Shown here: positions 1 through 19,837 of the stretch, in pieces | How the letters are laid out: every line of letters begins with the position of its first letter | Position numbering within the stretch: position 1 is the first letter of the stretch | From: a virus | Lineage: Duplodnaviria > Caudoviricetes | Direction: 5' to 3' (one strand) | DNA length: 32,797 bases | IMG/VR virus record: IMGVR_UViG_3300033076_000895 | Coordinates: 1 to 32,797 of that record | Made by a program: the position numbers and the translations under genes | The notes under the pieces: generated by a model | Databases searched by the model: none | What the model was told of the DNA's origin: nothing | What the model saw: the letters and a program-made list of their open reading frames with translations, nothing else

Positions 1-438
1 ACTGTTAGTTCTCCATTTGTTTCTGGTAGTGGTGGTAATGGTACTGTAGTTTTAAGATATTCAGGTACTCCAATAGCAACTGGTGGTACAATTGTAACTT
101 CAGGTTCTTTCACATATCACTATTTCGCATCTTCATCTAATTTTAATCTCACATTAAGTCCTTTATTAATTAGACCAGGAGCACCTGGAGAGAGTGGAGC
201 AGTAACTGGTTCTAACGCAGGAAATAATACTGGTGGTGGAGCAGGTGGCTCATTCTATAATATATCAGGTTCTAAAGGTGGAAGTGGATTCGTAGCATTA
301 AGATACGAAGGAGCTCCAATAGCAACTGGTGGACAAATGATTGGAACTGACCATTACACATATCACATATACACAGCAAGTGGAGAGTTCTACGCAATAG
401 GACAAGAAACAAATCCAAATATTAATCCTTGCCCATAA
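1..438 (+). CDS. 3' end of a glycine-rich tail fibre/adhesin (partial, 5' truncated)
   Basis: Frame 1 is open from base 1 to TAA at 436-438. It contains two copies of the GGxGxVxLRY..PIATGG....TYH.F/Y module typical of Gly-rich phage fibre domains. Confidence 0.8.
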   Translation, partial: TVSSPFVSGSGGNGTVVLRYSGTPIATGGTIVTSGSFTYHYFASSSNFNLTLSPLLIRPGAPGESGAVTGSNAGNNTGGGAGGSFYNISGSKGGSGFVALRYEGAPIATGGQMIGTDHYTYHIYTASGEFYAIGQETNPNINPCP

Positions 439-469
439 AGCAAAAAATCAATACAAAAAAACAAACAAT

Positions 470-477
470 TGTTAAAT
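470..477 (+). promoter_or_regulatory. Putative late promoter core TGTTAAAT (copy 1, before scaffold)
   Basis: One of 8 intergenic copies, all on the + strand upstream of virion or packaging genes. Confidence 0.75.
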
Positions 478-495
478 AATTAAATCAAAAATAAT

Positions 496-1173
496 ATGAA
501 CGCAAAACAAGTATTAGATAAAGTATTAGCAGCTCTTTCTTTAGTGAAGGAAGATGTTCAATTTACAGACGCTAAACTAGCTGATGGTACAATCTTACAA
601 TCTCCTACCTTTGATTTAGGTGAGAGTATTGAAGTAGTACACGAAGATGGAACTAAAACTCCAGCACCTAATGGTGAGCATGAAGTTGTTCTTAAAGATT
701 CTGAAGGTAAAGACGTTAGAATTCAAGTACAAGTTCAAGATGGTAAAATAGTTGAAAGAAGCAATGTAGAAGAAGAAACTCCGGCAACGGATGAAGCTGT
801 TGATATGGCAAGTATCGCAGGTGATGATATCGCATCTCCAGAAGCTCCGAATGAAATTCAAACTGAGCCACAAGATATTCCTCAAACTATGGAAACTCTT
901 TCTTATAGAATTGAAGAATTAGAGAAATTAGTAAAAGAGCACTTAATTGATAAAGCTCCTACTAAAGAATCTCAAACAGAAAAAACTGAGCCTGTATCAA
1001 TGGCAGCAGTTGATGGTGATGAAGAAGATTCAGTTGATTCTGATGAAGAAGAATTACCAAAATTGGATGGTGCACCAATTGATGATGAACCAAAACCAAC
1101 ACACAAATTTAGTAATAAGAAAAATACTGTAGGAAACTCACAGAACACTTTCTTATCAAAATTATATAATTAA
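496..1173 (+). CDS. Capsid scaffolding protein
   Basis: Acidic 225 aa protein with a short coiled coil (LSYRIEELEKLV) and an AP.GEH motif, directly upstream of the major capsid gene. Confidence 0.7.
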   Translation: MNAKQVLDKVLAALSLVKEDVQFTDAKLADGTILQSPTFDLGESIEVVHEDGTKTPAPNGEHEVVLKDSEGKDVRIQVQVQDGKIVERSNVEEETPATDEAVDMASIAGDDIASPEAPNEIQTEPQDIPQTMETLSYRIEELEKLVKEHLIDKAPTKESQTEKTEPVSMAAVDGDEEDSVDSDEEELPKLDGAPIDDEPKPTHKFSNKKNTVGNSQNTFLSKLYN

Positions 1174-1196
1174 ACAAAACAAAAAAATCATTTAAC

Positions 1197-2153
1197 ATGA
1201 GAAAATTACAAAAATTCGCAGGTGAACAACCAGCAATAACTACTACCTACGCAGGTGAGTTCGCTGGTAAGTACATCGCAGCGGCGTTGTTATCTGCTAC
1301 TACTTTGGACAAGAAGTATATCACTATTCTTCCTAACGTAAAGTATAAGCAAGTATTACAAAAAATCGCTGTAAACTCTATTGTGAACGATGCTTCTTGT
1401 AACTTTATTACTTCTGGAACTGTAGCTCTTACTGAGAGAATCATAGAACCAAAAGAATTACAAGTTAACTTAGAACTTTGTAAGCAAAACTTTGTAAATA
1501 GCTGGGAGGCTTTACAATTAGGATACTCTGCATTTGACGAGATTCCAAAAGACTTTACTGATTTCTTAATCAGCTATGTAGGTGGTACAGTAGCTCAAGC
1601 AACTGAACAATCTATTTGGACTGGTGTAGCAGCAACTAACGGCCAATTCGCAGGTTTATTACCAGCGTTATCAGCTTCAGTAGCAGCTGGTGGAGCAGGT
1701 GCTGTATTACAAGCAACTGGTTCAGGTGCAATCAATTCATCTAACGTATTAGCTAGATTGGATAACGTGTACAACACAATCCCTAACACTGTTTATGGTA
1801 AAGAAGATTTATTAATCTATGTACCAACAAACGTGGCTAAAGCTTATCAACAAGCATTAGCTGGTGGAGCACAAGGTGCAAACGGTTGGAACAACCAAAT
1901 GAACGTTGGTGAAAAACCAATGAACTTCAATGGTGTTGAAATCGTTATGTGTCCTGGTATGACTTCTAACTACATCGTAGCAGCTCAAAAATCTAACTTA
2001 TACTTCGGTACTGGTTTGATGAGTGATTACAATGAAGTAAGAGTGTTAGACATGGCACAAATTGATGGTTCTCAAAACTTTAGAATCATAATGAGATATA
2101 CAGCAGCAACACAATTCGGTATCGGAAGTGATGCAGTTATCTATATCCCATAA
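1197..2153 (+). CDS. Major capsid protein
   Basis: 318 aa. Motifs ITTTYAGEFAGKYIAAALLS, NLYFGTGL and DGSQNFRIIMRYTA resemble Bacteroidota phage capsid proteins. Codon usage looks biased toward high expression. Confidence 0.85.
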   Translation: MRKLQKFAGEQPAITTTYAGEFAGKYIAAALLSATTLDKKYITILPNVKYKQVLQKIAVNSIVNDASCNFITSGTVALTERIIEPKELQVNLELCKQNFVNSWEALQLGYSAFDEIPKDFTDFLISYVGGTVAQATEQSIWTGVAATNGQFAGLLPALSASVAAGGAGAVLQATGSGAINSSNVLARLDNVYNTIPNTVYGKEDLLIYVPTNVAKAYQQALAGGAQGANGWNNQMNVGEKPMNFNGVEIVMCPGMTSNYIVAAQKSNLYFGTGLMSDYNEVRVLDMAQIDGSQNFRIIMRYTAATQFGIGSDAVIYIP

Positions 2154-2162
2154 GAAAAATAT

Positions 2163-2212
2163 TGAGTGAGTAATAGGGAGATTAAAGTTAAAACTATATC
2201 TCCCTTCACTTA
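2163..2212 (+). other. Bulged stem-loop after the capsid gene (possible mRNA stabiliser or processing site)
   Basis: TGAGTGA/TCACTTA plus AGGGAGAT/ATCTCCCT stems. No U-tract follows. Confidence 0.55.
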
Positions 2213-2244
2213 AAACAAAATTAACAAAACTAAAAAACAAAACT

Positions 2245-2805
2245 ATGGCTTGTGATTTATCATCAGGAAGAAACGAAGTTTGTAAAGAGAGTATCGGTGG
2301 TTTGAGTGGTGTATATTTTATTAACTATGTTAATAACAATGGTACATCTGGTTCATTCACAACTGATGCTTCTGGCTACATTACTTCATTCCCATCTGCT
2401 AGTGCATACTACTATCAGTTGAAAGGAACAAGTGCATATACTGAAACTGTTAATACATCTCGTGAAAACGGTACAACATTCTTCTCTCAGGAGTTAGTGT
2501 TAAACCTTAAGAAAATCACACAAGAGATGAATACTCAATTGAAGCTTATGGCTTATGGAAGACCTCAAATCGTTGTTGTAACAAACAATGGTGATTCTTT
2601 CTTAGTAGGTAAGACTTTGGGAGCTGATGTAACTGCTGGTACTATTGGTACTGGAGCTGCATTAGGTGATTTGTACGGATACTCAGTTACCTTTACTGGT
2701 ACTGAACCTGTTCCTGCAAACTTTATCTCTGGTTCTACTTCAGCTGCAAATCCTTTCGGAAGTGCAACGAATAAACCAACAATTGTATACGGTAGCAATA
2801 ACTAA
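2245..2805 (+). CDS. Major tail tube protein
   Basis: 186 aa, starts MACDLSSGR..CK..IGG and contains SRENGTTFFSQEL and GDLYGYSVTFTG.E. It is co-transcribed with the capsid gene up to a terminator. Confidence 0.7.
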   Translation: MACDLSSGRNEVCKESIGGLSGVYFINYVNNNGTSGSFTTDASGYITSFPSASAYYYQLKGTSAYTETVNTSRENGTTFFSQELVLNLKKITQEMNTQLKLMAYGRPQIVVVTNNGDSFLVGKTLGADVTAGTIGTGAALGDLYGYSVTFTGTEPVPANFISGSTSAANPFGSATNKPTIVYGSNN

Positions 2806-2827
2806 TCAGTATTACACTTAAAATATT

Positions 2828-2856
2828 AAAGGGAGGACAAAGTTCTCCCTTTTTTT
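2828..2856 (+). terminator. Rho-independent terminator
   Basis: AAAGGGAGGAC-AAA-GTTCTCCCTTT followed by a T-run and ATGTC. Confidence 0.85.
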
Positions 2857-2886
2857 ATGTCTAATAACTAAAAAGAATTTGTAAGT

Positions 2887-2894
2887 TGTTAAAT
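2887..2894 (+). promoter_or_regulatory. Putative late promoter core TGTTAAAT (copy 2)
   Basis: Lies directly after the terminator, with AACTA 16 nt upstream, and would restart transcription for the portal operon. Confidence 0.75.
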
Positions 2895-2924
2895 TAATAG
2901 ATAAAAACAAGTTAAAGACACGCT

Positions 2925-3287
2925 ATGTTAGCATACTATATTTCAGGAAGTAATATATTCACATTTAGAACAGCCCCAACTGGTTCTTCTAATCTTACAT
3001 TACACTTGCAGAATATGATGACATTAAAGAATTCATCTTCTTCAATTTCACCATATACCTACAATGCATACGAAAGTATGTTATCATTCACAGCTTCTAT
3101 TTCATCATCATTAGTTGGTGGGGAATATAGAGCATACATATCTGATGGCACTTCTTCTATTTGGAATGGTTCTGTTCAAGTTTATACATCTCAATCGGTG
3201 GATAAAGCTAATTATGAAAACCAAATTCCTTTAGAGCAAGTATATAAGAGCAATTTAACTGAAAACGAATATATAATTTTAGACTAA
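2925..3287 (+). CDS. Hypothetical virion protein (possible head closure)
   Basis: 120 aa, Ser-rich and beta-like, located between the tail tube and portal genes. Confidence 0.5.
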   Translation: MLAYYISGSNIFTFRTAPTGSSNLTLHLQNMMTLKNSSSSISPYTYNAYESMLSFTASISSSLVGGEYRAYISDGTSSIWNGSVQVYTSQSVDKANYENQIPLEQVYKSNLTENEYIILD

Positions 3288-3288
3288 T

Positions 3289-4578
3289 ATGAAAGTAGCA
3301 CAAAACTTTAGTGTAGTAAACCTTACACAACAAGATATCCCAGTTATTATTGAGGATACAAAGACAAGACATCCGTGGATACCTGTTGGTATCATAATGC
3401 CTGATGATTTCTTTAGTAACATAACTGATTCATATAACAACTCTACAACTAATGCAGCTTGTGTTGGTGGTATAGCTGATATGATATTTGGTAAAGGTAT
3501 CTATTGTGAAAACGAAGCTCTTAAAGATGATTTCAGAAAGATGTTATCTCAAGAAGAAATTAAAAGAGTAATATTTGATTTAAAATTATATGGTAATGGA
3601 TGTTTCCAAGTATATTGGGATGATTCGCATACAAAGATTATTAAAATGTATCATACTCCAGTACAAAGTATTAGAGCACAAAAATTATATACTTCTCCTA
3701 AAATTGAAGGATATTATTATTGTACTAATTGGAATGATATGAAAGCTCAAAGAAATAAAATATATATTCCTGCTTTCGGTACATCAAATGAGAAGATGGA
3801 ATTACTTTATATAAAGGATTATTCACCTGGTAAATTCTATTATTCACAACCTGATTGGTTTGCTGGTTTACAATTTGCTTATGTAGAAGCTGAATTATCT
3901 AACTTACATCTTAACAATATTGAGAATGGTTTCTTACCATTAGTGATGGTTAATATGAACAATGGTATTCCAGCTCCTGAAGAAAGAGATACAATTGAAG
4001 ATATGATTGAATCTAAATTTACAGGCACTAGAAACGCTGGTAGATTTATCTTAACATTCAATGATGATAAGGAAAGACAACCAACAATTGAAACTATCCA
4101 AACTGATAATTTGCATGAGAAATTTAAATATGTAGCAGATTACGCACAGGATAGAATATTGGTTTCACATAGAGTTACATCGCCACTTTTAATGGGTATT
4201 AGAACGGCTGTAAACGGATTTAGTTCTAACAGTGAGGAAATGCAAACAGCTTACTCTATTCTTCAAACTATGACAATAGAACCATTCCAGAATTTGATTT
4301 TAAACCAATTAGATAAAGCACTTTCTGATGGTGGATGGGAAGACTTAGGATTATACTTTGAACAATCTACTCCATCAGCTCTTTTAGCATCACAAGCTGA
4401 AGCAACTGGACAAACTATTGAAGAAGTTAAAAAAGATATAGCAGAAGTTGGTGAGAATCCAGCAGTTACCGATACGGAAGGTGAGGGTGTAGGTGGTGAG
4501 GCTCAAGACCAAACAACTCCAATATCAATGAGCAATCCTAATTTTACAAAAGAATACGAAGTATATAAAACAAACTAA
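3289..4578 (+). CDS. Portal protein
   Basis: 429 aa with S.TNAACV.GIADMIFGKG, DLKLYGN, KFTGTRNAG and HRVTSPLLMGI, which are HK97-type portal features. Confidence 0.85.
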   Translation: MKVAQNFSVVNLTQQDIPVIIEDTKTRHPWIPVGIIMPDDFFSNITDSYNNSTTNAACVGGIADMIFGKGIYCENEALKDDFRKMLSQEEIKRVIFDLKLYGNGCFQVYWDDSHTKIIKMYHTPVQSIRAQKLYTSPKIEGYYYCTNWNDMKAQRNKIYIPAFGTSNEKMELLYIKDYSPGKFYYSQPDWFAGLQFAYVEAELSNLHLNNIENGFLPLVMVNMNNGIPAPEERDTIEDMIESKFTGTRNAGRFILTFNDDKERQPTIETIQTDNLHEKFKYVADYAQDRILVSHRVTSPLLMGIRTAVNGFSSNSEEMQTAYSILQTMTIEPFQNLILNQLDKALSDGGWEDLGLYFEQSTPSALLASQAEATGQTIEEVKKDIAEVGENPAVTDTEGEGVGGEAQDQTTPISMSNPNFTKEYEVYKTN

Positions 4579-4582
4579 GAAT

Positions 4583-5101
4583 ATGGCATACGCATTATTT
4601 ATAAGCAGAAACGATATTATCAAACAAACTCCATTACAGGGTTCTATTGATGCAGATAGATTACTATCATTTGTGAGAACAGCACAAGACAAATACCTTT
4701 TAAACTTATTAGGTACTGTTCTTTTCTATTATTTACAAGCACAAATAGAAGCAGGTACTGTAAGCCAATTAGGTCCATACTACCAAGATTTAATTAATGA
4801 CCATATTAAGCCAACACTTATTTGGTATTCAGTAGCAGAATATCTTCCATTTTCAAATACACAATTTAAGAGTGAAGGAGCTGTAAGATTAAAAACTGAT
4901 AACTCAGAAACTGTTGGTAAAGACCAAGTAGATTATCTATTACAAAAGGCTCTTAACTCAGCAGATTTCTACGCAACTAGAATGCAAAACTATCTAATAT
5001 CATACTCAAATCAAATACCTCAATACCTACAATCAATTGGTAATCAAACTCAGGTATTCCCTGATATGGGTAATGCATATTTTGGTGGTATAAATTTATA
5101 A
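4583..5101 (+). CDS. Head-tail adaptor/connector
   Basis: 172 aa helical protein (AQDKYL..LLG..L, IKP.LIW) immediately after the portal gene. Confidence 0.6.
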   Translation: MAYALFISRNDIIKQTPLQGSIDADRLLSFVRTAQDKYLLNLLGTVLFYYLQAQIEAGTVSQLGPYYQDLINDHIKPTLIWYSVAEYLPFSNTQFKSEGAVRLKTDNSETVGKDQVDYLLQKALNSADFYATRMQNYLISYSNQIPQYLQSIGNQTQVFPDMGNAYFGGINL

Positions 5102-5105
5102 TATT

Positions 5106-5621
5106 ATGGCTGTAGTAAACAATCAGGCAACTAACTATTCGTTATACTATAACGCATTAGATTATTTTAAAACAATAATGAGCAATCATCCTTCTATTGA
5201 GCAAGTATCAACAGGTGATATGTCTCAATTAGATGACTTAGAATTTCCTCCATATCCATTGGGGAATATACTAATAACTGAAGCTAAGTTTAATGGTTCA
5301 AAAACTATCTATTCTTGCCAACTTACAGTTGCTGACAAGCTTAAGTTAAAGAATAACGAATCAACCGGAGTGTATAATGCGCAAACTGTACCTTTCTATG
5401 GTACTGATGATATGGTTGATATACATGCTAACACCTTATCTATAATAAACGATTTACTATCTTATACAGAATATGCAGTACAAGCATTTGATATTGATGG
5501 TAATATAAATTGTATAGCATTTAGAGAAGATTTTCCAAATGGATTAGCCGGATGGGTTTGTTCATTTGATTTAATTTCTCATAACGATAGACCAAGATGT
5601 TTATTTAATCTTTATCCATAA
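5106..5621 (+). CDS. Putative tail terminator protein
   Basis: 171 aa with YPL.NI and F.E.F.N.LAGW. Its position in the connector cluster fits this role. Confidence 0.5.
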   Translation: MAVVNNQATNYSLYYNALDYFKTIMSNHPSIEQVSTGDMSQLDDLEFPPYPLGNILITEAKFNGSKTIYSCQLTVADKLKLKNNESTGVYNAQTVPFYGTDDMVDIHANTLSIINDLLSYTEYAVQAFDIDGNINCIAFREDFPNGLAGWVCSFDLISHNDRPRCLFNLYP

Positions 5622-6106
5622 TGGCTGCATTCTCATTTCCTGGCGTTAAAGCAATTGCTGATGCATATCGCAAAACAGCGCAGGATAAGATGTTGCAAGG
5701 ATACCCTGGTCGTAATCCTAACAAACCTGTTAAACCTATTATTGGTAAAGGTGAAAATGCTGGCAATCTATATAGAAGAATTGGTTCGTATAACACTGCA
5801 GCTAATATGGCTACAATGCGTTCAACAAAATTAGGAAACAAAGAAGAATTAAGTAATATTACAATATCCCTAAACTTTGCACCTCCGGGAGCAACTTATG
5901 GTAAATGGGTAGAATGGGGTAATGGAACTCAAAGTGGATATGGTGTACCAAGACCATTTGCAGCAGATGCAGGTAAAGACCCAGAACTTAAAAGAGTAGT
6001 TGATGCTGCTATGTTAGGTAATAATGGGTTAATCAATAGATATATTAAAGCAATTCAAGCTGATATTGAGGATGAGATGGAAAGCTTGGGATTTAAGAAA
6101 AGCTAA
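5621..6106 (+). CDS. Putative tail completion protein (HK97 gp10-like)
   Basis: Basic 161 aa protein with G.LYR.I, YGKWVEWG.G and PRPF motifs. Confidence 0.55.
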   Translation: MAAFSFPGVKAIADAYRKTAQDKMLQGYPGRNPNKPVKPIIGKGENAGNLYRRIGSYNTAANMATMRSTKLGNKEELSNITISLNFAPPGATYGKWVEWGNGTQSGYGVPRPFAADAGKDPELKRVVDAAMLGNNGLINRYIKAIQADIEDEMESLGFKKS

Positions 6107-6132
6107 CCATCAATAACATAATCCTCTTAAGT

Positions 6133-6140
6133 TGTTAAAT
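6133..6140 (+). promoter_or_regulatory. Putative late promoter core TGTTAAAT (copy 3)
   Basis: Intergenic, 15 nt before the ATG at 6156. Confidence 0.75.
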
Positions 6141-6155
6141 TAAAAAGATTTAACG

Positions 6156-7319
6156 ATGTCTCTTTCTATAACACAAAATCCAGCAACCGCATCATTAGCA
6201 CAATCTCCAATGGCATTTACGCTATCGGAAAGTGGTGATGTTGTATTAAGCTCATCATTCCAATATTTCACAGACTTATACTATTGGACTGGTTCACTAA
6301 ACCAATCAGGTTCTATAAAATATCAATTAGTAAAGTATCCAAATGCAAGTAGAGTGGGTATTTTTGATGTAAGTAGAGTAATCAATTCTACATTACAGGA
6401 TTTAAGACAAACTAATCCATCAAATGTAAAATTTTATAAAGTTGATGGATATTATCGCTATTTATCAGGTTCATCTTATGTGACAAGTTCTCACGTTGAA
6501 TCTGATGTATATAAAGCTTTAGATGGGTATGGTTTATTTCAAGAAGCAATCAACGGACCAATATATGGTAAGTCACCTTATTGGCCATTAATGAGTGATG
6601 GGCCTGTAACACAATCTTTTTATGAACTTAATACAGGTACAATGGGTGTATATACTCAAGGTGCTGGTGAATCTGATTTACCTACTAAAATAACCTATGA
6701 ATCAAATTTAGGAACGGCAAATATAAATGTAAGTGGAAGTATATCTTCTTCTCAACAAATACAACAAGTTCCTTTATTCCCAGCTCAAACAGGATTTCCT
6801 TTTAGTTCAAATGGATTAGAGTGGTACACATTACAACCTTTTAAAAGTAGTACTGCATTAGCTCCTTCAATAAGATATGAATATAATTGTTTACAAAAAT
6901 ATCCTAATGTTAGAATCAAATGGAAAAATAGATACGGACAATTTGATTATTTCAATTTCTATATGATTAGTAAGAAATCTTTCAAAACTGAAAAGAGGAC
7001 TTACCAGCCACAAGTTGGTACTTGGCAGGGTAGTACTTTAAGCTACAATAATTACGATTCACAAAATCTTAACTATTTGGTAGATTCTAATCAGGGATTA
7101 AATGTAAATACATTTTGGATTCCTGAGAATTACAACGATATCCTGAAGCAATTATTATTAAGTGATGAAATATACTATGTAACTACAGAAAGCTCTCAGG
7201 ATTTAACGCCTATCACCATAGATACGAATTCTATTGAGTTTAAAACTAATGTAGTAGATGGATTAATTCAATACTCATTTGATTTCAGATTTGGTCAGAA
7301 TTATAAACTAATAATCTAA
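6156..7319 (+). CDS. Tail protein (distal-tail-like)
   Basis: 387 aa. The C-terminal W.NRYG.FDYFNF...LLLSDEIY...IQYSFDF motif is typical of Bacteroidota siphovirus tail proteins. Confidence 0.6.
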   Translation: MSLSITQNPATASLAQSPMAFTLSESGDVVLSSSFQYFTDLYYWTGSLNQSGSIKYQLVKYPNASRVGIFDVSRVINSTLQDLRQTNPSNVKFYKVDGYYRYLSGSSYVTSSHVESDVYKALDGYGLFQEAINGPIYGKSPYWPLMSDGPVTQSFYELNTGTMGVYTQGAGESDLPTKITYESNLGTANINVSGSISSSQQIQQVPLFPAQTGFPFSSNGLEWYTLQPFKSSTALAPSIRYEYNCLQKYPNVRIKWKNRYGQFDYFNFYMISKKSFKTEKRTYQPQVGTWQGSTLSYNNYDSQNLNYLVDSNQGLNVNTFWIPENYNDILKQLLLSDEIYYVTTESSQDLTPITIDTNSIEFKTNVVDGLIQYSFDFRFGQNYKLII

Positions 7320-7322
7320 TAT

Positions 7323-9335
7323 ATGTCAGTAATTAGTACACAAGGAATTAAGTTTAATTTAGTAGCTGAAGGACAAATACTTGATTTATTTAAAGATGAA
7401 CAAGTCCTATTATCGGATAACGTAACTGGTCTTTTTGATTTGGGTGTTATACCTGCTGACTTTACTAGACAAATTACTTTGCCTGGTTCTAAAAAGAATA
7501 ACGCATTCTTTGAGCACGTTTATGATATTAGTGTTCAATCTCCTGATACATTTGCTACTAACGTTAAAGTACCTTGTTACTTAGATTTTCAGGGTATTTA
7601 TTTAGCACAAGGTTATCTACAATTAAATAAAGTAAGTTTATATCAAAATAAATTTATTGATTCATATGAGGTAACAATCTATGGAGCTGTATCTTCTTTT
7701 GCTAGACAAATTAGTAGAGCTTATTTAAATGATTTAACTTCATTAGCAGCTTATAATCACACATCATCAGTTTCAGCTATTACATCTTCTTGGAGTGGTA
7801 GTTTATTTAATGGTGATATAGTTTATCCTTTAGCTGAATATGGACAAAAGATACAATACAATCCTGAAGAAGCTAACTATGGAATAGATTCACCTTATGA
7901 TGCTTTATGTGTGCAGGATTTTAAACCTGCTATTAAAGCTAAGGTTGTATGGGATGCTATATTTGCAGAAGCTGGGTTTACTTATTCATCATCCTTTATT
8001 AACGATGGTGGGTTAGATGATATATATTTGGTTTGTAATAGACAATTAAGATATCCATTATACGCAGAAGCAAACCCTGAAACATACGGACAATTTAGAA
8101 TAGCGCCTATATCAGGAAGTGGAGCTACTGATATTGTATTGACAGCAACTACTGATTATAGATTACCATGGGCTAATATCATAACAAATCCTGGTGGACA
8201 AATGGGAAGTGATTTAGTATTTCGTAATACATATCCAACTCAATTAAGAGGACTTATAAATCTTAATTTTCAAATAAGTGCTTCTGGTGCTGGAAATAGT
8301 GTACCTTTATTTACACTTAAAATTAAAAATGTAGATACAAATGTAAATACTTCTGACCAAAGATTAGGAGTGATAAATGCTTATATGGACCAAGTTTATC
8401 AATATAATAATCCTACAACAAGAACACAAACATTTAACGTAACACAGCAATTCAATTCTGATTTATTACCATCAGGTTCTTACGCATTTTATTTAATGTA
8501 TAATTACTCAGGTTCAGCTTCAAACTTTACTTTAACATTAGACCAAGGTGGACAACCTAAATCTTTTTTAGATGTATATAAAGCAACATCAATAGGTGAT
8601 GGATTAGTAATGGATATACCTTTGAATATGCCATATGGTACTAGAGGAATTAAACAAATTGATTTCCTTACATCTATTCAAAAGAAATTTAATTTGGTAA
8701 TGTATCCATCTAAAAATAGAGCTAATCAATTTATAGTAGAATCTTTTAATAGATGGTATGATAAAGGTAGAAGATGGGATTTTGATAGATATATTAACCT
8801 TGATAAAATGATTGAGGTTATACCAACTAATAACTTTGCTGTTAATGAATTAAATTTTGGTGATACATTAGACCAAGATTATGTTTCATTACAATTTAGT
8901 AAAGCTGCTAATAGAGAATTTGGTAAGAGTTATTATGTAGATACTCAAAACTTCTTTTCGCAAGGTAAGTTTGAAGTTAAGACGGCATTGGCATCAACAC
9001 CATTATTACAAATAACTAATACTGGTTTATCAGGTTCTGTAGCTGGATTAAACCCTACACCTGTAACTTCATATGCGTATGAAATTGGGGATGCAGGATG
9101 GAATAGTAAATATAATGCATGTAATAACACATCTTACTATCCAACAACAGTATATGCTGCATCTTCTACACCTGAAAATGTTAGACAATTCTTCTATGAT
9201 GACCAATTATCAATTGGATTTAATGGTAATTATGAATATTGGAAATGGTCTTTAGTTGGTGCATACGATTATTATACTTCACTAATTATATACAGTGGTA
9301 ATGTATTTTCAACACAAAATTGCGGAGGAGTTTAA
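7323..9335 (+). CDS. Tail tip/hub protein, N-terminal part with a C-terminal accessory domain
   Basis: 670 aa with LDLF.DE, FTRQITLPGSKKNN.FF, YPLAEYG, FKPAI and FL.SI.KKFNL. Confidence 0.65.
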   Translation: MSVISTQGIKFNLVAEGQILDLFKDEQVLLSDNVTGLFDLGVIPADFTRQITLPGSKKNNAFFEHVYDISVQSPDTFATNVKVPCYLDFQGIYLAQGYLQLNKVSLYQNKFIDSYEVTIYGAVSSFARQISRAYLNDLTSLAAYNHTSSVSAITSSWSGSLFNGDIVYPLAEYGQKIQYNPEEANYGIDSPYDALCVQDFKPAIKAKVVWDAIFAEAGFTYSSSFINDGGLDDIYLVCNRQLRYPLYAEANPETYGQFRIAPISGSGATDIVLTATTDYRLPWANIITNPGGQMGSDLVFRNTYPTQLRGLINLNFQISASGAGNSVPLFTLKIKNVDTNVNTSDQRLGVINAYMDQVYQYNNPTTRTQTFNVTQQFNSDLLPSGSYAFYLMYNYSGSASNFTLTLDQGGQPKSFLDVYKATSIGDGLVMDIPLNMPYGTRGIKQIDFLTSIQKKFNLVMYPSKNRANQFIVESFNRWYDKGRRWDFDRYINLDKMIEVIPTNNFAVNELNFGDTLDQDYVSLQFSKAANREFGKSYYVDTQNFFSQGKFEVKTALASTPLLQITNTGLSGSVAGLNPTPVTSYAYEIGDAGWNSKYNACNNTSYYPTTVYAASSTPENVRQFFYDDQLSIGFNGNYEYWKWSLVGAYDYYTSLIIYSGNVFSTQNCGGV

Positions 9336-9346
9336 AATAAATAATT

Positions 9347-9883
9347 ATGGCACAAAAAATACCTATATACATTCCAACTTACATTTCTTCAATTGATTAT
9401 GCTCCTTCAAGAGTTCAACCAAGAATATTTTATTCAAATGGTATGCTTGATTGTGAAGCTTATTATATACAAGGATTTAATTTACCAAGTAGCGCTTCAA
9501 TATACGCTTATGAACAGACAGCATTTCCGTATTTTGATAACTACAGTGTAGTATCTGGTTCTCAATTTCCAACAACAGGTTCTAAATCATTACTTTTTAA
9601 TAATGAGCAATCTGTATATGGAAGTACACCAACCAATTCTTTATATTCTGATTATTGGAGTAGATATGTTGAATTACTTTATAATCCTAGAACTAGAATA
9701 ATGAATGCATCTGCTATCATTCCTTTGGCTGATTATTTTGATATGGAATTAAATGATATTGTGAATTTTAGAGGAAACGATTATCACCTTAGAGCGATTA
9801 ATGATTATAATCTATCAACAGGAGAATGTAATATTCAGTTATTAGGACCTATATTAGAGGGTTCATTAAATGTAACTTCTTAA
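9347..9883 (+). CDS. Tail tip protein, C-terminal-type module
   Basis: 178 aa with PRIFY, SLYSDYW..Y..LY and L.LND.V...YHL..I.DY.L.TGE...LL. Confidence 0.6.
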   Translation: MAQKIPIYIPTYISSIDYAPSRVQPRIFYSNGMLDCEAYYIQGFNLPSSASIYAYEQTAFPYFDNYSVVSGSQFPTTGSKSLLFNNEQSVYGSTPTNSLYSDYWSRYVELLYNPRTRIMNASAIIPLADYFDMELNDIVNFRGNDYHLRAINDYNLSTGECNIQLLGPILEGSLNVTS

Positions 9884-9884
9884 A

Positions 9885-9892
9885 TGTTAAAT
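9885..9892 (+). promoter_or_regulatory. Putative late promoter core TGTTAAAT (copy 4)
   Basis: Only 4 nt before the ATG at 9897. Confidence 0.7.
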
Positions 9893-9896
9893 TAAT

Positions 9897-10046
9897 ATGA
9901 TAAAGAATATAATAGATTTGTTGGCAATGGATGATTTTTATGGTGTATCTCACAATGTAGATATAGCTAAAGGAATTAACAAAAGACCTAATAGCTGGAA
10001 AGCTTTTAGAGAATTAATAAAAAGACATTGGAAAAGTAAAAAATAG
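9897..10046 (+). CDS. 49-aa hypothetical protein (missing from the ORF track)
   Basis: Translates as MIKNIIDLLAMDDFYGVSHNVDIAKGINKRPNSWKAFRELIKRHWKSKK. It fills the gap exactly: promoter motif before it, stop 2 nt before the tape measure ATG. Confidence 0.75.
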   Translation: MIKNIIDLLAMDDFYGVSHNVDIAKGINKRPNSWKAFRELIKRHWKSKK

Positions 10047-10048
10047 CC

Positions 10049-12301
10049 ATGGCAGATAATGTAACAAAATACACAACCGAAATTGATATTGATACCTCAT
10101 CTTCAATTGCTGAATTAAAAAAGCTGAAGAAGGAATTAAGAAGTATCCCTTTAGATACAGAAGAATTTAAGGTTGCGCAAGCAAGAATTAATGATATTGA
10201 AGATAGCTTAAAAGGAGCTAGAACTGGAGCTGATAGTTTCGTTGAGGTATTGGGTAAATTACCTGGTCCTATTGGAAACATTGGTAATTCAGTAGCTGGA
10301 ACTGTATTATCTTTAAAAACATTCACATCACTTAAATTTGGTGACCTTCGTTCATCATTTGGTGAATTATCTAAAGATGTAATTGATATTGGTAAAGGTA
10401 TTGGTAGACTTACAGGTCTTACTAAATTATATGAATTTACTAACCAAGCTTTATCTAAATCATTTGTTGCTTTAGGTGTAAGTGAAGGTGTTGCAGCAAC
10501 AGGAGCTAAGGCTTTATCAGCTGCATTAATTTCAACTGGTATTGGTGCATTAGTAGTAGCAATTGGATATGCAGTATCTAAGTTAATTGAATTTGCCGGC
10601 TCAACTGAAGAATCTGATAGAGCAGCTAAAGCATTTAACGCAACTATTGAGGAGCAAGAAAGATTATTACAAAATGATGCAGAAGCATTAGATACAGCAG
10701 CTAAAGCGGCTGTGACAAGAGCTAAGTTAGCAGGTAAGAGTGAAGCTGAAATTGTTGAATTACAAAAAGGATTTAATAAAGAAAAATTAGAAAATCTTAG
10801 AGCTTATGATGAGCAATTATTCCAACAATCAAGAGAATTAAATAAGAATGATAAATTAAGTGCTGAAGAAAAGTTAAAGCTAAGTGAAGAATTAAACAAA
10901 AAGATTTTAAAGAGTGGACAAGATATTACTAAACAAATTCTTTCTAACTCTCAGTTTGAATTAGATTCACAATTATCTGCAAAAGAAAAAGCAGATGCTA
11001 AAGCTGCACAACTTGGTGAAAAAAGTAAAGCAGCTAAATTAAAACAAAAAGAAGAAGAAAAGAAAGCTTTAGAGGCTGCTGAAAAGGTAATAGTTGAAGC
11101 TTACTTATCTACAATTACTGAAAGAGATTCAGAAGTATTTAAAAGAGGACAAAAGTTAAATGAAGATATAGCTGCATTAGAAAAAGCTGGTATTAAAGAT
11201 TTAACAGGTGTAAAAGAAGCATATCGTTTAGATGTACAAAAGATTGAAGATAAATACAATAAAGAGGATTTAGAAAAGAAAGCTGATGCTGATAAAAAGG
11301 TAAGTGAATTTGATTCTAAGGTAGCTGAAATTCGTATTGCTGCAATTAAAGATGAAGTAGTAAGAAGTAAAGCTGAAAGACAAAAGCAATATGATGATGC
11401 TTTAATGGAATTAGAGGCTGATAAAGAATTCATTAAAAGAAGTGAAGAAGAAAAGAATGAAATCCGTAAGAATCTTAAAACAGCATTAGAAAATGATTTA
11501 GCAAAAATAGATGATGATGCTAAACTTAAGAAGAATGAAAAGGATGTTAAGGCTATTGATGATGAGTTAAGATTATTAGAATTAAGAAGTGCTGGTATGA
11601 TTACTGGTACTAAAGCTTATTTTGAAGCAAGAGCAGCAATATTAGATGCAGAAGAAGCAAAAGAATTAGCTAAAGCTGAATTAACTGAAGCTGAGAAAAC
11701 AGCAATAAAAGATAAGTACGCTAAATTAAGACAACAATTAGATGAGGATGAGATTGCATCATATGGTAAAGTAATATCAGCAACATTGGATGCATTAGGT
11801 TCAGTAACATCAGCAATCGCTAGTGGATACGATGAAGAAGCTAAGACATCTAAAGAAGCATTTGAAAAGAGAAAGAAATTGCAAAAAGCAACAGCTTTAT
11901 TATCTGCAGCTAGTGGTATCGTACAAATACTTACACAGCCATCTACATTACCTTCTCCATTTGATTTTATTGTGAAAGGTATAAACGCAGTGGCATTAGG
12001 TATCTCAACAGCAGTTCAAATTAAGAATATAGATAAAACTCAATTTGATGGTGGTGGAAGTAGTGGAAGTACTGCAGCTCCAGTAGCATCGGCGCCGGCA
12101 CCAACAGTACCTACTGTTGCAAAGATAGGCGTACCTCAAATTTCCGGTACAGAGGGTGGTAATAATCCTACCTCACAAATTGCTCAGACCCTATCTAAAG
12201 CAAGTGATAAGCCCGTGAAAGCGTATGTCGTATCAGGTGATGTAACTTCTCAACAGGCATTAGATAGAAGAACCACAAGAGCAGCAACCTTTAGTGGATA
12301 A
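10049..12301 (+). CDS. Tape measure protein
   Basis: 750 aa Ala/Lys/Glu coiled coil with hydrophobic segments (ALISTGIGALVVAIG) and a C-terminal PVKAYVVSGDVTSQQALDR. Confidence 0.85.
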   Translation: MADNVTKYTTEIDIDTSSSIAELKKLKKELRSIPLDTEEFKVAQARINDIEDSLKGARTGADSFVEVLGKLPGPIGNIGNSVAGTVLSLKTFTSLKFGDLRSSFGELSKDVIDIGKGIGRLTGLTKLYEFTNQALSKSFVALGVSEGVAATGAKALSAALISTGIGALVVAIGYAVSKLIEFAGSTEESDRAAKAFNATIEEQERLLQNDAEALDTAAKAAVTRAKLAGKSEAEIVELQKGFNKEKLENLRAYDEQLFQQSRELNKNDKLSAEEKLKLSEELNKKILKSGQDITKQILSNSQFELDSQLSAKEKADAKAAQLGEKSKAAKLKQKEEEKKALEAAEKVIVEAYLSTITERDSEVFKRGQKLNEDIAALEKAGIKDLTGVKEAYRLDVQKIEDKYNKEDLEKKADADKKVSEFDSKVAEIRIAAIKDEVVRSKAERQKQYDDALMELEADKEFIKRSEEEKNEIRKNLKTALENDLAKIDDDAKLKKNEKDVKAIDDELRLLELRSAGMITGTKAYFEARAAILDAEEAKELAKAELTEAEKTAIKDKYAKLRQQLDEDEIASYGKVISATLDALGSVTSAIASGYDEEAKTSKEAFEKRKKLQKATALLSAASGIVQILTQPSTLPSPFDFIVKGINAVALGISTAVQIKNIDKTQFDGGGSSGSTAAPVASAPAPTVPTVAKIGVPQISGTEGGNNPTSQIAQTLSKASDKPVKAYVVSGDVTSQQALDRRTTRAATFSG

Positions 12302-12314
12302 AATGAAATTAAAT

Positions 12315-12322
12315 TGTTAAAT
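12315..12322 (+). promoter_or_regulatory. Putative late promoter core TGTTAAAT (copy 5)
   Basis: 4 nt before the ATG at 12327. The 20-bp context is identical to copy 4. Confidence 0.7.
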
Positions 12323-12326
12323 TAAT

Positions 12327-13400
12327 ATGATAAAAGACCAAATATACGAATTAGTATTAGAAGATGATGCAGATGAAGTATTCGCCATTTCATTGGTAGA
12401 AGAACCAGCAATTGAATCTAACTTTGTTTATTTCAATAAGCAAGGTGTACAATTCACAGCTATAAGTGATGAAAAGCGTCTTGTAATGGGACCTATATTG
12501 GTTCCTGATAAAAAGATTTTAAGAGTAGATGAGATGGGTAATCCATACTATGTATTCTTTAAACCTAACACAATTAAGAAGTTATCTGAAATGTATTTAG
12601 AAAAAAAATATAACTCTGAAACAACATTAGAACATGATAAAAAAATTGATAATATATCGTTGGTTGAAAGCTGGATTGTTGAAAGTAGAACAAAAGATAA
12701 ATCCGCAATCTATGGCCTTAGTCTTCCAATTGGTAGCTGGGTTGGCACTTTTAAAGTTAATAATGATGATATCTGGAATAACTATGTAAAGACTGGTGAT
12801 GTAAAAGGATTCTCAATTGAGGGAATGTTTTCACATAAATTGGTTGAAGCATCTATGGTAGAAGATATTATGGAAAAAGAAATTACTGAATTAAGTAATG
12901 AAGAAGCTGAAATAATATTGAGTAGAATGAAAGCCCTAATCAAAAAAGATAGCAGATATAAATCTGGTAAAAGAGTTGATATGGAATCTTATTCTGATTA
13001 TCCAGATGGAGTAAAGAACAATGCTAAGAAAGCAATTGAGTGGGCTAATAGTAATGGTTGGGGAAGTTGTGGTACTCCTGTTGGTAAGCAAAGAGCTAAT
13101 CAATTAGCAAAGGGTGAACCTATTTCAGTAGATACAATTCAAAGAATGTATTCATTTCTTAGTAGACATGAAGGTGATTTAGAATCATCAAAAGCATTTG
13201 GTGATGGTTGTGGATATCTTATGTATATGGCATGGGGTGGTAAAGCAGCATTAGGTTGGGCTCACAATAAATTAAAAGGTTTAGGATTAGTAGAAGCTGA
13301 GGGACAACCTTCAGTAGCATCATCTTATCCTGGTGAAGGACCAACAAAAAAGAAAAAAACAAAAATGTGGAGTGATGTATTCGCTTCAATAAAACAATAA
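12327..13400 (+). CDS. XkdF-like putative prohead serine protease with a C-terminal accessory domain
   Basis: ISLVEEPAIE, KRLVMGPILVPDK, GSWVGTFKV and VKGFSIEG.F. The C-terminal SYSDYP..GTPVG..RANQLA..WGG domain is common in phage head proteins. Confidence 0.75.
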   Translation: MIKDQIYELVLEDDADEVFAISLVEEPAIESNFVYFNKQGVQFTAISDEKRLVMGPILVPDKKILRVDEMGNPYYVFFKPNTIKKLSEMYLEKKYNSETTLEHDKKIDNISLVESWIVESRTKDKSAIYGLSLPIGSWVGTFKVNNDDIWNNYVKTGDVKGFSIEGMFSHKLVEASMVEDIMEKEITELSNEEAEIILSRMKALIKKDSRYKSGKRVDMESYSDYPDGVKNNAKKAIEWANSNGWGSCGTPVGKQRANQLAKGEPISVDTIQRMYSFLSRHEGDLESSKAFGDGCGYLMYMAWGGKAALGWAHNKLKGLGLVEAEGQPSVASSYPGEGPTKKKKTKMWSDVFASIKQ

Positions 13401-16545: not shown

Positions 16546-16629
16546 ATTGATTATCAACACGTTAGCTAAATGTGGATAACTTGTGGATAAATCACTTAAA
16601 AATCTTTTATTGAGTATCAACACGTTAGC
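16546..16629. promoter_or_regulatory. Candidate origin/regulatory site: two DnaA boxes between two 21-bp IHF-consensus repeats
   Basis: TGTGGATAA at 16571-16579 and 16582-16590. ATTGA(T/G)TATCAACACGTTAGC at 16546-16566 and 16609-16629. Confidence 0.65.
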
Positions 16630-17487: not shown

Positions 17488-17799
17488 ATGGAAGATAGAA
17501 TATTATCATTAGAGAGGCGATTAATGGCGCTTCTCAATTCCCTGCCTAAAGAAATGCAGGATAGAGTAGAAGAAGAAAAGTTTGTAATGAGAAAAGAAAC
17601 TGGTAAGAAATACAAAGTGCAATTCCTTATTGAAACTGATAAAGGTACTAAACCAATTACAATAGATAACATATGGGCATGGTCTGATGCTGATGCTATG
17701 TATGTTGGTAGTGTAGTATATGTTAAACCTGAAATGGATAGGTTACAAAAGAATGGAGTAATACGATTTTATAAGATAATAAATAAAAAAGTTTTGTAA
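17488..17799 (+). CDS. Hypothetical protein
   Basis: 103 aa, directly after the peptidase gene. Confidence 0.65.
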   Translation: MEDRILSLERRLMALLNSLPKEMQDRVEEEKFVMRKETGKKYKVQFLIETDKGTKPITIDNIWAWSDADAMYVGSVVYVKPEMDRLQKNGVIRFYKIINKKVL

Positions 17800-17823
17800 T
17801 ATCAAAATAATTTCGTATCTTTA
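17793..17823 (+). promoter_or_regulatory. Bacteroidota-type host sigma70 promoter facing an ORF-free region
   Basis: TTTG-N19-TATCTTTA. Confidence 0.7.
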
Positions 17824-17864
17824 TAAAATAAAACTACCAAAAACGCTGTTTGAAAAATAACGGC

Positions 17865-17872
17865 ATATTTAT
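17865..17872 (+). promoter_or_regulatory. ATATTTAT motif, putative phage-sigma (middle) promoter
   Basis: Also present intergenically at 19298 and 19422. Confidence 0.45.
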
Positions 17873-17909
17873 TAGTACATAAACCCATAAAACACCTTAA
17901 ACTTTAAAA

Positions 17910-18190
17910 CGAATAGACCCTTGAACATTCTGTATTAGTAGATACTGAATATACGGAGGCATGGTATCTCTTAAATAAAGAGTAGATAACCTTCAGGTCA
18001 AAAATGGTATGAGTTATAATACTGGTAATGGAATTGATTAATGTTTCTGTAGACACTCTTTAGTTAATCAATGTTGAAGTTATCGTAGAAGGCTTGATAC
18101 TGATTTAAAAAAATCCCTAAAGAGTGGTCTGTCTCCTGTAAAGCAGTGTGAGTGATTGACCGAAACCTTTTAAGGGTTTCGCTCACAATC
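17910..18190 (+). ncRNA. Candidate structured ncRNA with multibranch stems and two pseudoknots
   Basis: No ORF, two upstream promoter motifs, and at least seven complementary segment pairs including G-U pairs that favour the + strand (details in findings). Confidence 0.65.
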
Positions 18191-18203
18191 AAATCACTTA
18201 AAA

Positions 18204-18235
18204 TTTGGTAGTTTCAAATAAATTTCGTATCTTTA
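18204..18235 (+). promoter_or_regulatory. Bacteroidota-type host sigma70 promoter
   Basis: TTTG-N20-TATCTTTA before the ATG at 18259. Confidence 0.75.
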
Positions 18236-18258
18236 CATAACAATAAAAAATATAATGA

Positions 18259-18747
18259 ATGGCAAATTACATCAAAGAAAATTATTCAGTATTTGATAAA
18301 ATACTAAATATATTAGTAGATAGCTCACAGTCTACTGAATGGAAAAATGGGGAGCATAGAATTGAATTTAAAAATCTTAATTTAGCTGGATACAGGGAGT
18401 TTTTATATAATTTAAGTGAGATTGAAATACAGGCTAATAGTCAATTATATCAACAATATCAATTTTGTCAGAATTTATTTAGATTATGTGAAAGATATAA
18501 AAGTATTGGTATGGATGCTTTTAATGGTAATGAGATAAAGTTTTATGAATTATTGAAAGATAATATGTGGCAATGGTTAAAACAAGATTTAAATTTAGTA
18601 TTAAAAGACTCAGAAAGAAAGCATTACACTAAACTTGCATTTGATTATAAAAATGAAGGAAATGCTTCAGTACAATTTAATAGTTACTTAGCATCTACTA
18701 AAGAAGCCGCAATGAATAATATACACAAAAAAGTAAACTTTGGATAA
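18259..18747 (+). CDS. Hypothetical early protein
   Basis: 162 aa behind a host-type promoter. No motif recognised. Confidence 0.7.
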   Translation: MANYIKENYSVFDKILNILVDSSQSTEWKNGEHRIEFKNLNLAGYREFLYNLSEIEIQANSQLYQQYQFCQNLFRLCERYKSIGMDAFNGNEIKFYELLKDNMWQWLKQDLNLVLKDSERKHYTKLAFDYKNEGNASVQFNSYLASTKEAAMNNIHKKVNFG

Positions 18748-19447: not shown

Positions 19448-19837
19448 ATGGCAAAATTAGAAATTAGAGATTTAAAATCGTTTCCTGACTATTATGCTGG
19501 GAATGATGGAAACATCTACACAACAAAGATATCTCCAAGATATAATCCTAAAGGTGAATTAAAAGTATTAAGACCACGCATACATCCAAACGGATATTCA
19601 TACTATGGATTATTTGTAGGTAAAGGACCTAACAAACAAAGATTATGGAGAAGGGGTCATAGATTGGTAGCAGCTACATTTATAGGACCAATTCCGAAAG
19701 GTAAAGAGGTTAATCACAAGGATGGTAACAAAAACAATAATGTACCAGAGAATTTAGATTATATGACTCGTAAACAGAATGTAAATCATTATCACACAAT
19801 ATTAAAACCATTAAGAAATGAAAATAAAGCAAACTAA
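19448..19837 (+). CDS. HNH endonuclease (NUMOD4/HNH_3 type)
   Basis: HRLVA..FI......VNHKDGNK.NN...NL......N..H. Confidence 0.85.
   Translation: MAKLEIRDLKSFPDYYAGNDGNIYTTKISPRYNPKGELKVLRPRIHPNGYSYYGLFVGKGPNKQRLWRRGHRLVAATFIGPIPKGKEVNHKDGNKNNNVPENLDYMTRKQNVNHYHTILKPLRNENKAN

What the first reader, a model, noticed from the sequence alone, without database searches (positions are those of the whole stretch)
17910..18190. Candidate novel large structured RNA with two pseudoknots and an alternative end pairing
This is the largest ORF-free gap (17800-18258). It is preceded by both a host promoter and an ATATTTAT motif, and the next gene has its own promoter, so the RNA appears to be the product. 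Nested pairings read from the sequence: P1 GGAGGCA 17955-61 / TGTCTCC 18130-36 (extended by TAC/GTA and ACTG/CAGT); P2 GGTATC 17963-68 / GATACT 18096-101; P4 GATAAC-C-TTCA 17985-95 / TGAAGTTATC 18075-84; P5 ATTGATTAA 18033-41 / TTAATCAAT 18064-72; small hairpins at 17968-82, 18005-24 and 18102-15; and a 3' hairpin TGTGAG...CGAAACC/GGTTTCG-CTCACA at 18147-87. Pseudoknot 1: the P5 loop CACTCTTTAG 18054-63 is perfectly complementary to CTAAAGAGTG 18117-26. Pseudoknot 2: GGTCAA 17996-18001 pairs with TTGACC 18156-61, which lies in the bulge of the 3' hairpin. AGACCCTTGAA 17915-25 can alternatively pair with 18169-79, excluding the 3' hairpin. I do not recognise it as tRNA, tmRNA, RNase P, an intron or a small ribozyme. 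Inference: a ribozyme-like or scaffold RNA, or a replication-primer RNA given the missing replication genes. The adjacent early ORFs 17488 and 18259 are candidate partners.
Basis: partly seen in the sequence, partly recalled or inferred. Interest (0 to 1): 0.88.

Follow-up and report, generated by a model that had tools for sequence, protein, structure and literature searches.

The report
Folded RNA replaces phage replication initiator
This small lake phage carries an uncatalogued, roughly 220-base folded RNA exactly where its close relatives carry the protein gene that starts DNA copying, never together with that gene, so the RNA likely starts phage DNA replication itself, a job so far described for folded RNAs in two plasmid families.

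Summary
Sixteen distinct homologues support a ~220-nt core (17916-18131): a three-way junction, an A-rich linker, a long stem with a kink-turn, and one pseudoknot (95% of cells paired, 20 pairs with two-sided changes, 0 of 500 shuffles). P1, P2, P4, pseudoknot 2 and the alternative end pairing do not; the 3' hairpin is a separate module. There is no Rfam match and no fixed partner gene.

The context is the key result. In related phages the same slot, behind the same promoter motif, holds a replication-initiator gene of several unrelated families. Of 19 whole contigs, 9 have an initiator and no such RNA, 7 have this RNA and no initiator, 3 have other structured-looking non-coding blocks and no initiator, and none has both. 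Two RNA carriers are 94% and 100% complete, and the swap recurred at least five times on a gene tree.

Best reading: an RNA-based origin that works like ColE1 RNA II but is unrelated to it. Function is inferred from gene content, not tested.

The parts
17793..17823 (+). Host-type (Bacteroidota) promoter: TTTG 17793-96, 19-nt spacer, TATCTTTA 17816-23
   Evidence: Sequence; consensus TTTG/TANNTTTG read in passages of PMC6847099; last base differs from consensus
17845..17864 (+). Small terminator-like hairpin between the host promoter and the TATTTAT motif; stronger terminators sit here in several relatives
17865..17872 (+). TATTTAT motif that precedes the slot content in relatives (initiator genes and RNAs alike); likely a second promoter. 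The cassette swap point lies just behind it
   Evidence: promoter role inferred
17873..17915 (+). Unstructured A/C-rich leader, its 3' half conserved in close homologues
17916..17999 (+). Domain 1, three-way junction: P1 17916-19/17996-99; P2 hairpin 17928-49; P3 17955-59/17990-94, extended by 17965-67/17986-88 and hairpin 17968-82
   Evidence: P1 100% paired, 2 pairs with two-sided change; P2 5 such pairs; P3 100%, 1 such pair; hairpin 3 such pairs
18000..18006 (+). Conserved single-stranded linker A(A/C)AAATG
   Evidence: Alignment A7
18007..18100 (+). Domain 2, long stem: P4 18007-14/18092-100; P4b 18020-29/18079-87; predicted kink-turn (bulge 18073-75, G-A pairs 18076-77 with 18032-31); P5 18033-41/18064-72; 22-nt apical loop
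   Evidence: P4 98% paired, 3 two-sided pairs; P5 100%, 3 two-sided pairs. Kink-turn columns invariant in 16 of 16
18050..18131 (+). Pseudoknot: apical loop 18050-63 with 3' tail 18117-31 (10 + 4 bp, one bulged G)
   Evidence: 96% paired, 8 of 14 pairs never vary, 1 two-sided pair (L017/L328 lineage only), 2 one-sided; duplex -15.4 kcal/mol
18147..18187 (.). 3' hairpin: a separate module, not part of the conserved RNA; found in the window, L037 and L258, each before an ORF-18259-like gene
18204..18235 (+). Host-type promoter of the next gene
17488..17799 (+). 103-aa ORF of no known family; common upstream neighbour of the slot, not a fixed partner
19448..19837 (+). HNH endonuclease gene used as anchor; initiator or RNA lies about 0.9-1.9 kb upstream of it in relatives
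16571..16590 (.). Two DnaA-box matches (TGTGGATAA), 1.3 kb upstream; the box consensus is recalled

Best explanation
The element is a covarying ~220-nt structured RNA that stands in the place of the initiator gene of a Bacteroidota-type lake phage, and it likely acts in cis as the replication origin by folding during transcription so that its 3' end would stay hybridised to the DNA and prime or open replication with host enzymes. Shown: the fold, the shared promoter region, the exclusive swap with initiator genes, and the lack of any recognisable phage replication gene in carriers. Inferred: that the cassette supplies origin function (about 0.7), and that it does so as an R-loop primer processed by host RNase H and Pol I with host primosome loading, as ColE1 does (about 0.5). 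Speculative: the kink-turn brings the apical loop back to the polymerase, where the loop could pair either with the RNA's own tail (pseudoknot) or with the displaced non-template DNA strand, which has the same sequence as that tail, and so hold the bubble open.
For: Slot content in relatives is an initiator: PHROG/Pfam name types A, B, C, D and I as replication initiation, primosomal, DnaD-like or Lin1244-like proteins, and 6 of 7 initiator genes examined carry 3-5 in-gene tandem repeats of 11-15 bp. Whole contigs: 9 of 19 initiator only, 7 of 19 this RNA only (G043 and G047 are one phage), 3 of 19 another non-coding block only, 0 both. HNH-anchored loci: 19 of 41 initiator, 11 of 41 this RNA, 0 both, 11 neither, of which 7 are short of 1.8 kb upstream. 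No initiator hit among 43 window ORFs or among the ORFs scanned from carriers G043 (100% complete), G044, G034, G033 and G018, with a positive control hitting. The RNA label needs 8 changes on the HNH tree, at least 5 forced by well-supported branches. Pairs with homologous flanks on both sides of the slot: L271/L030, L167/L019, L018/L020; L034 and L106 share the promoter up to the swap point. G050, which has neither in the slot, carries the type-2 block elsewhere on the other strand, so the pattern is more than one slot holding one thing. The type-1 3' tail recurs at the 3' end of the otherwise unrelated type-4 block (E 0.007, top hit in 41 kb).
Against: No experiment shows origin activity. 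Seven of the 19 'initiator' rows are not named as initiators by any library (types G/H: DUF6291 or unknown PHROGs; types E/F/J: no hit, Atlas leads of 0.88-0.90, low-confidence model with only weak winged-helix matches). An initiator of an unknown family among the unannotated small ORFs of carriers cannot be excluded; L017 and L328 have a 96-aa ORF of no family overlapping the RNA's 5' end. ColE1 hallmarks are missing: no G run over 3, no antisense host promoter, half the length. DnaA boxes occur in both kinds of phage and could carry initiation. GC skew shows no switch at the RNA. The pseudoknot's covariation rests on one lineage. The Fisher value (5e-5) treats related phages as independent.
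Confidence: 0.5

Rival explanations
1. The cassette supplies initiation, but the RNA works as a cis-tethered scaffold that recruits a host initiator or helicase loader, replacing the initiator protein rather than priming synthesis.
For: Same exclusivity data. Invariant junction and linker bases beyond pairing needs. The unrelated initiators end in a similar short acidic helix, by eye a host-protein contact that the RNA could mimic. No G tract.
Against: I know no bacterial precedent (own knowledge). It does not explain how the duplex is opened without iterons; no tandem repeats at 17700-18400.
Confidence: 0.18
2. The slot is a hypervariable accessory site; the initiator-like genes are dispensable (replication starting from DnaA boxes or plain transcription), and the RNA is a trans-acting RNA such as a decoy or protein sponge.
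For: One slot holds one cassette, so part of the exclusivity is trivial. DnaA boxes lie near the slot in both kinds of phage. The RNA often has its own promoter and the next gene another.
Against: All 10 initiator-less whole contigs carry a large non-coding block, one of them outside the slot; none was found with neither. Carriers never keep an initiator elsewhere, although rearranged relatives show that the gene can sit apart from ORF 17488.
Confidence: 0.2
3. It is a 5' leader (riboswitch, antiterminator or processing ribozyme) for the genes behind it.
For: In 6 of 13 carriers shown an ORF starts within about 45 nt of the RNA's 3' end. A competing 5'-3' closing helix exists in close homologues. 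AUG-codon-stop follows the linker in 16 of 16.
Against: Downstream genes are unrelated between carriers, and others have their own promoter after the RNA. The closing helix has no two-sided change and breaks in L271, L017 and L328. No Rfam riboswitch or ribozyme match. It leaves the missing initiator unexplained.
Confidence: 0.08

Closest known systems
ColE1 RNA II pre-primer (PMC5043065, passages read)
   Same: No element-encoded initiator; a promoter-driven non-coding RNA whose fold would govern origin opening with host enzymes.
   Different: No sequence match; about 220-300 nt against 550; no antisense promoter seen; no G tract (recalled as a ColE1 feature); phage, Bacteroidota-type host; swaps with protein initiators; kink-turn and pseudoknot.
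MRB (marine RNA-based) Vibrio replicons (PMC3035462, abstract and discussion read)
   Same: Rep-less origin encoded as RNA; that 2010 paper names ColE1 and MRB as the only such plasmid families.
   Different: MRB is defined by a 68-nt antisense RNA I and is limited to Vibrionaceae plasmids; no such RNA or homology found here.
T4 oriF/oriG R-loop origins (PMC3016281, passages read)
   Same: Phage origin made of a promoter and a transcript that primes leading-strand synthesis.
   Different: T4 R-loops need no specific sequence, only an AT-rich unwinding element, and use phage replication proteins; here the RNA has a conserved fold and no phage replisome gene was recognised.
Lambda O-type initiator with in-gene iterons (recalled)
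   Same: This is what sister phages carry in the slot.
   Different: The window has neither the gene nor iterons.
Kink-turn arms of SAM-I and lysine riboswitches (k-turn rules from abstract openings of PMC5061560 and PMC4382518; riboswitch layout recalled)
   Same: A kink-turn bends a long stem so that its loop can pair back; 3n = G predicts folding in metal ions alone.
   Different: No Rfam match and no fixed downstream metabolic gene.

Membership tests
ColE1/MRB RNA-based replicons | No element-encoded initiator protein | tested here: met
   unknown families cannot be excluded
ColE1/MRB RNA-based replicons | Promoter-driven structured non-coding RNA in the replication region | tested here: met
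   transcription itself only weakly hinted
ColE1/MRB RNA-based replicons | Sequence or structure homology to RNA II or RNA I | tested here: not met
   No Rfam hit; no meaningful hit in 72,556 plasmid records
ColE1/MRB RNA-based replicons | Antisense regulator RNA I on the opposite strand | tested here: inconclusive
   No minus-strand host-type promoter across the RNA; other promoter types and RNA reads not available
ColE1 | G-rich tract that helps hybrid formation (recalled) | tested here: not met
   Longest G run 2-3 in 16 of 16
ColE1/MRB RNA-based replicons | Persistent RNA-DNA hybrid, RNase H and Pol I dependence, autonomous replication | not testable with these tools
   Needs bench work
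T4-type R-loop origin | Promoter plus AT-rich unwinding element, RNA sequence not specific | tested here: not met
   The RNA's sequence and fold are under selection; AT-richness downstream is uninformative in a 33% GC genome
Any Rfam 15 family (tRNA, tmRNA, RNase P, introns, ribozymes, riboswitches, GOLLD, ROOL) | Score at or above gathering threshold | tested here: not met
   Window, L007, L017, L271, L328: 0 hits; two chance-level hits at E 1 and 3.7; ARAGORN 0
Standard kink-turn | [quoted passage not shown] | tested here: met
   Sequence pattern in 16 of 16; the bend itself is predicted

The most novel reading that the evidence does not exclude
A group of small lake phages has repeatedly replaced its initiator protein and iterons with protein-free RNA origins of up to four unrelated folds; in this one a kink-turned arm captures the displaced DNA strand at the transcription bubble and locks an R-loop that starts replication.
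Probability: 0.3. Interest if true: 0.93.

Novelty: new variant of a known kind. Interest (0 to 1): 0.8.

Why it matters
Folded-RNA origins are described for ColE1 and MRB plasmids, and the trigger that makes RNA polymerase form a persistent hybrid at ColE1 is called speculative in the review I read (PMC5043065). A 220-nt RNA with a covariation-backed fold that swaps cleanly with protein initiators between near-identical phages gives natural matched pairs for testing that step. It would give many phage genomes that seem to lack replication genes an explanation, assign a job to a class of orphan phage RNAs, and could yield small protein-free replicons for Bacteroidota genetics.

Tried and rejected
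Rfam, ARAGORN: nothing. GenBank phages and PLSDB plasmids: only short chance hits. GTDB pattern scan: 105 stretches, none confirmed (80 by covariance model; all by nhmmer); five Bacteroidota genomes: 0, so no host link beyond the promoter type. The metagenome scan covered 55 of 64 parts and its pattern misses the L271 and L328 variants. The MFE and RNAalifold 5'-3' closing helix rejected as the conserved form. Coding rejected: frame-shifting indels and short stop-free stretches. Partner proteins rejected. Expression: one 258-nt contig in lake RNA run X20 covers 17866-18096 at 95% identity and begins 25 nt before TATTTAT; it is a contig of depth 3 and may be DNA, so it is no proof; RNA run X4 has no cover there. 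GC skew uninformative. Structure of the type-E slot protein: pLDDT 56, no match at E 0.001, no profile match to type D. Types 2 and 3 show no model match to type 1. Literature: four searches for an RNA replacing a phage initiator returned 12, 0, 3 and 0 papers, none describing this in listing or abstract opening. The alignments of the 10,000 phage RNA candidates in PMC10690425 could not be read (files 1, 2, 4 and three large files not searched; main-text passages), so the family may be listed there unnamed.

Full report
Setting. The window is a whole virus record of 32,797 bases, 94% complete by CheckV. It has portal, terminase, protease, tail and methyltransferase genes; none of 43 ORFs scanned matches an initiator, helicase, primase or polymerase family in PHROGs or Pfam. 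Both ends fall in the virion-gene block, so the missing part is probably not in the early region (inference). Promoters match the Bacteroidota TTTG/TANNTTTG type (passages of PMC6847099). Relatives come from virus and metagenome contigs; two runs that I laid are labelled lake water.

Observation. The plus strand of the core folds better than the minus strand (z -2.36 against -1.01), and the supported helices hold invariant G-U pairs, which points to a plus-strand RNA and not a DNA hairpin. Rfam and ARAGORN find nothing.

Homologues and fold. Protein-anchored and pattern scans gave 16 distinct copies, 81-289 bits with model R1: 13 close ones including the window, L271, and the distant pair L017/L328. 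On a MAFFT alignment not fitted to any structure, a revised fold of 65 pairs has 95.2% of cells paired, 20 pairs with two-sided changes and a covariation score of 0.278, each reached by 0 of 500 shuffles; slid controls give 38-45%. I derived this fold by eye from these same sequences, so the figures lean in its favour; RNAalifold finds P2, P3, the 17968-82 hairpin, P4, P4b and P5 on its own. P1 reads GACC/GGUC, GGCC/GGUC, GUCC/GGAC and GGUC/GACC in four lineages. PK2's partner is absent in 15 of 15 homologues and the 3' hairpin is in 1 of 15. The RNA is therefore about 17916-18131: a three-way junction, an A(A/C)AAAUG linker, a long stem with a kink-turn pattern invariant in 16 of 16, and one pseudoknot from the 22-nt apical loop to the 3' tail. 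The pseudoknot is 96% paired but mostly invariant, with one two-sided change in one lineage, so it is well kept but only modestly proven.

Context. Genes on both sides of the RNA differ among carriers, which rules out a fixed partner. In relatives without the RNA, the slot upstream of the HNH gene holds a 150-215-aa gene. Types A, B and I match PHROG replication-initiation and DnaD-like families, C a primosomal family and DUF1376, D Lin1244_N; G and H match DUF6291 or unknown families; E, F and J match nothing and rest on position, in-gene repeats and weak leads. Six of 7 such genes examined carry 3-5 tandem 11-15-bp repeats, as lambda-type initiators with in-gene iterons do (comparison recalled); 17700-18400 has none. 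The same TATTTAT motif precedes initiators and RNAs, and the swap point is just behind it.

Exclusivity. Among 41 de-duplicated loci with the clade's HNH gene (at least 45% identity), 19 have an initiator, 11 this RNA, none both, and 11 neither; 7 of those 11 have under 1.8 kb upstream. The de-duplication dropped L100, an initiator carrier that is 99.7% identical over 3 kb downstream to L103, which has a non-coding block instead. Among 19 whole contigs, 9 have an initiator only, 7 this RNA only, 2 a type-2 block, 1 a type-4 block (type 4 seen). Of records at least 90% complete, G000 and G043 have the RNA and no initiator; G022, G024, G026, G048 and G049 have an initiator and no RNA. A PHROG scan of 94 ORFs, mostly early-region genes of carriers, found no initiator in any carrier, with the control hitting; ORFs under about 60 aa and large virion genes were left out. 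On an HNH gene tree of 33 rows the RNA label needs 8 changes, at least 5 forced, and is no more clustered than shuffles, so this is repeated exchange and not one ancestral loss. G050 has nothing large in the slot but carries the type-2 block elsewhere on the other strand, which is the best sign that the pattern reflects need and not just position. Types 2-4 are less well shown: type 2 has two variants with some paired changes but no folding excess (z -0.5, +0.6), type 3 is one sequence (z -4.0), type 4 one sequence (z -0.8).

Mechanism. A phage that loses its initiator also loses the iterons inside that gene, so the incoming cassette most simply brings the origin with it (inference). The known way to do this without protein is an RNA that forms a persistent hybrid, is trimmed by RNase H, is extended by Pol I, and exposes a strand for helicase loading (ColE1; passages of PMC5043065). 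I put this at 0.5, origin function by any route at about 0.7. The anatomy suggests how it might work: both domains finish folding 15-30 nt before the 3' tail is made, and the kink-turn would return the apical loop to the base of P4, near the polymerase. The loop is complementary to the tail and hence also to the displaced non-template DNA strand there; pairing with that strand would hold the bubble open. This step is speculation. The near invariance of loop and tail, and the reuse of the tail in type 4, fit a role for that sequence beyond RNA-RNA pairing but do not prove it.

Against. No function was tested. ColE1 hallmarks are absent. Seven of 19 initiator calls are unnamed. DnaA boxes occur near the slot in both kinds of phage, so host DnaA may contribute or suffice. 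Expression rests on one low-depth contig in one lake RNA run, and no host is linked.

Known systems and novelty. It works like ColE1 RNA II or MRB RNA II but is a member of neither; PMC3035462 (abstract, discussion) names those two as the only RNA-initiated plasmid families in 2010. T4 origins use R-loops without a specific RNA fold (passages of PMC3016281). Four literature searches showed no report of a folded RNA exchanged with a phage initiator; the library lacks most subscription papers, and the candidate alignments of PMC10690425 could not be read. Earlier notes of this scan describe RNAs in initiator slots of other phages; no look-alike sequence was found, my reading was noted before I saw them, and they are unchecked, so they are leads and not support.

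Verdict. A real, uncatalogued structured RNA with one pseudoknot, likely an RNA-based phage replication origin. Interest 0.8; new variant of a known kind.

Noticed in passing
L031:245-490, L252:3790-4045, L458:1990-2240, L454:4157-4416 (minus): Type-2 non-coding block of about 245 nt, no Rfam match, in initiator-less phages; shares a GG-CACAAA-TG-GTATG-like linker with type 1 by eye; G050's copy lies outside the slot.
   Followed up: partly
L258:835-1150: Type-3 block of about 310 nt in the slot (z -4.0), containing the same 3' hairpin as window 18147-87; single sequence.
   Followed up: partly
L103:3855-4115: Type-4 block in the slot; its 3' end matches the type-1 tail (E 0.007). Near-identical phage L100 has an initiator there.
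   Followed up: partly
window 18004-18012: AUG-codon-stop after the linker in 16 of 16 copies, with three different stop codons; may only reflect purine preference in P4.
   Followed up: partly
L034, L037, L271 leaders; L017:2598-2888: Some carriers keep an ATG-GCA at the initiator's start position; L034 and L271 read 33 codons through domain 1, and L017/L328 have a 96-aa ORF of no family ending in P2. Not in the window.
   Followed up: partly
alignment A9 (slot initiators): Unrelated initiators end in a similar short acidic amphipathic segment; small 55-60-aa ORFs behind the slot carry a similar segment and remain behind the RNA in L153, L166 and L271.
   Followed up: no
window 17866, 19299, 19423; 469, 31368: TATTTAT recurs before the HNH gene; TTGTTAAATA precedes two late genes. 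Probably two phage promoter classes.
   Followed up: no
window 1-13400: No major capsid protein was named by PHROGs or Pfam among the virion genes.
   Followed up: no
window 16571-16590: Two DnaA-box matches before the early block; single boxes sit just before the slot promoter in L001, L009, L010, L034, L106 and L145.
   Followed up: partly
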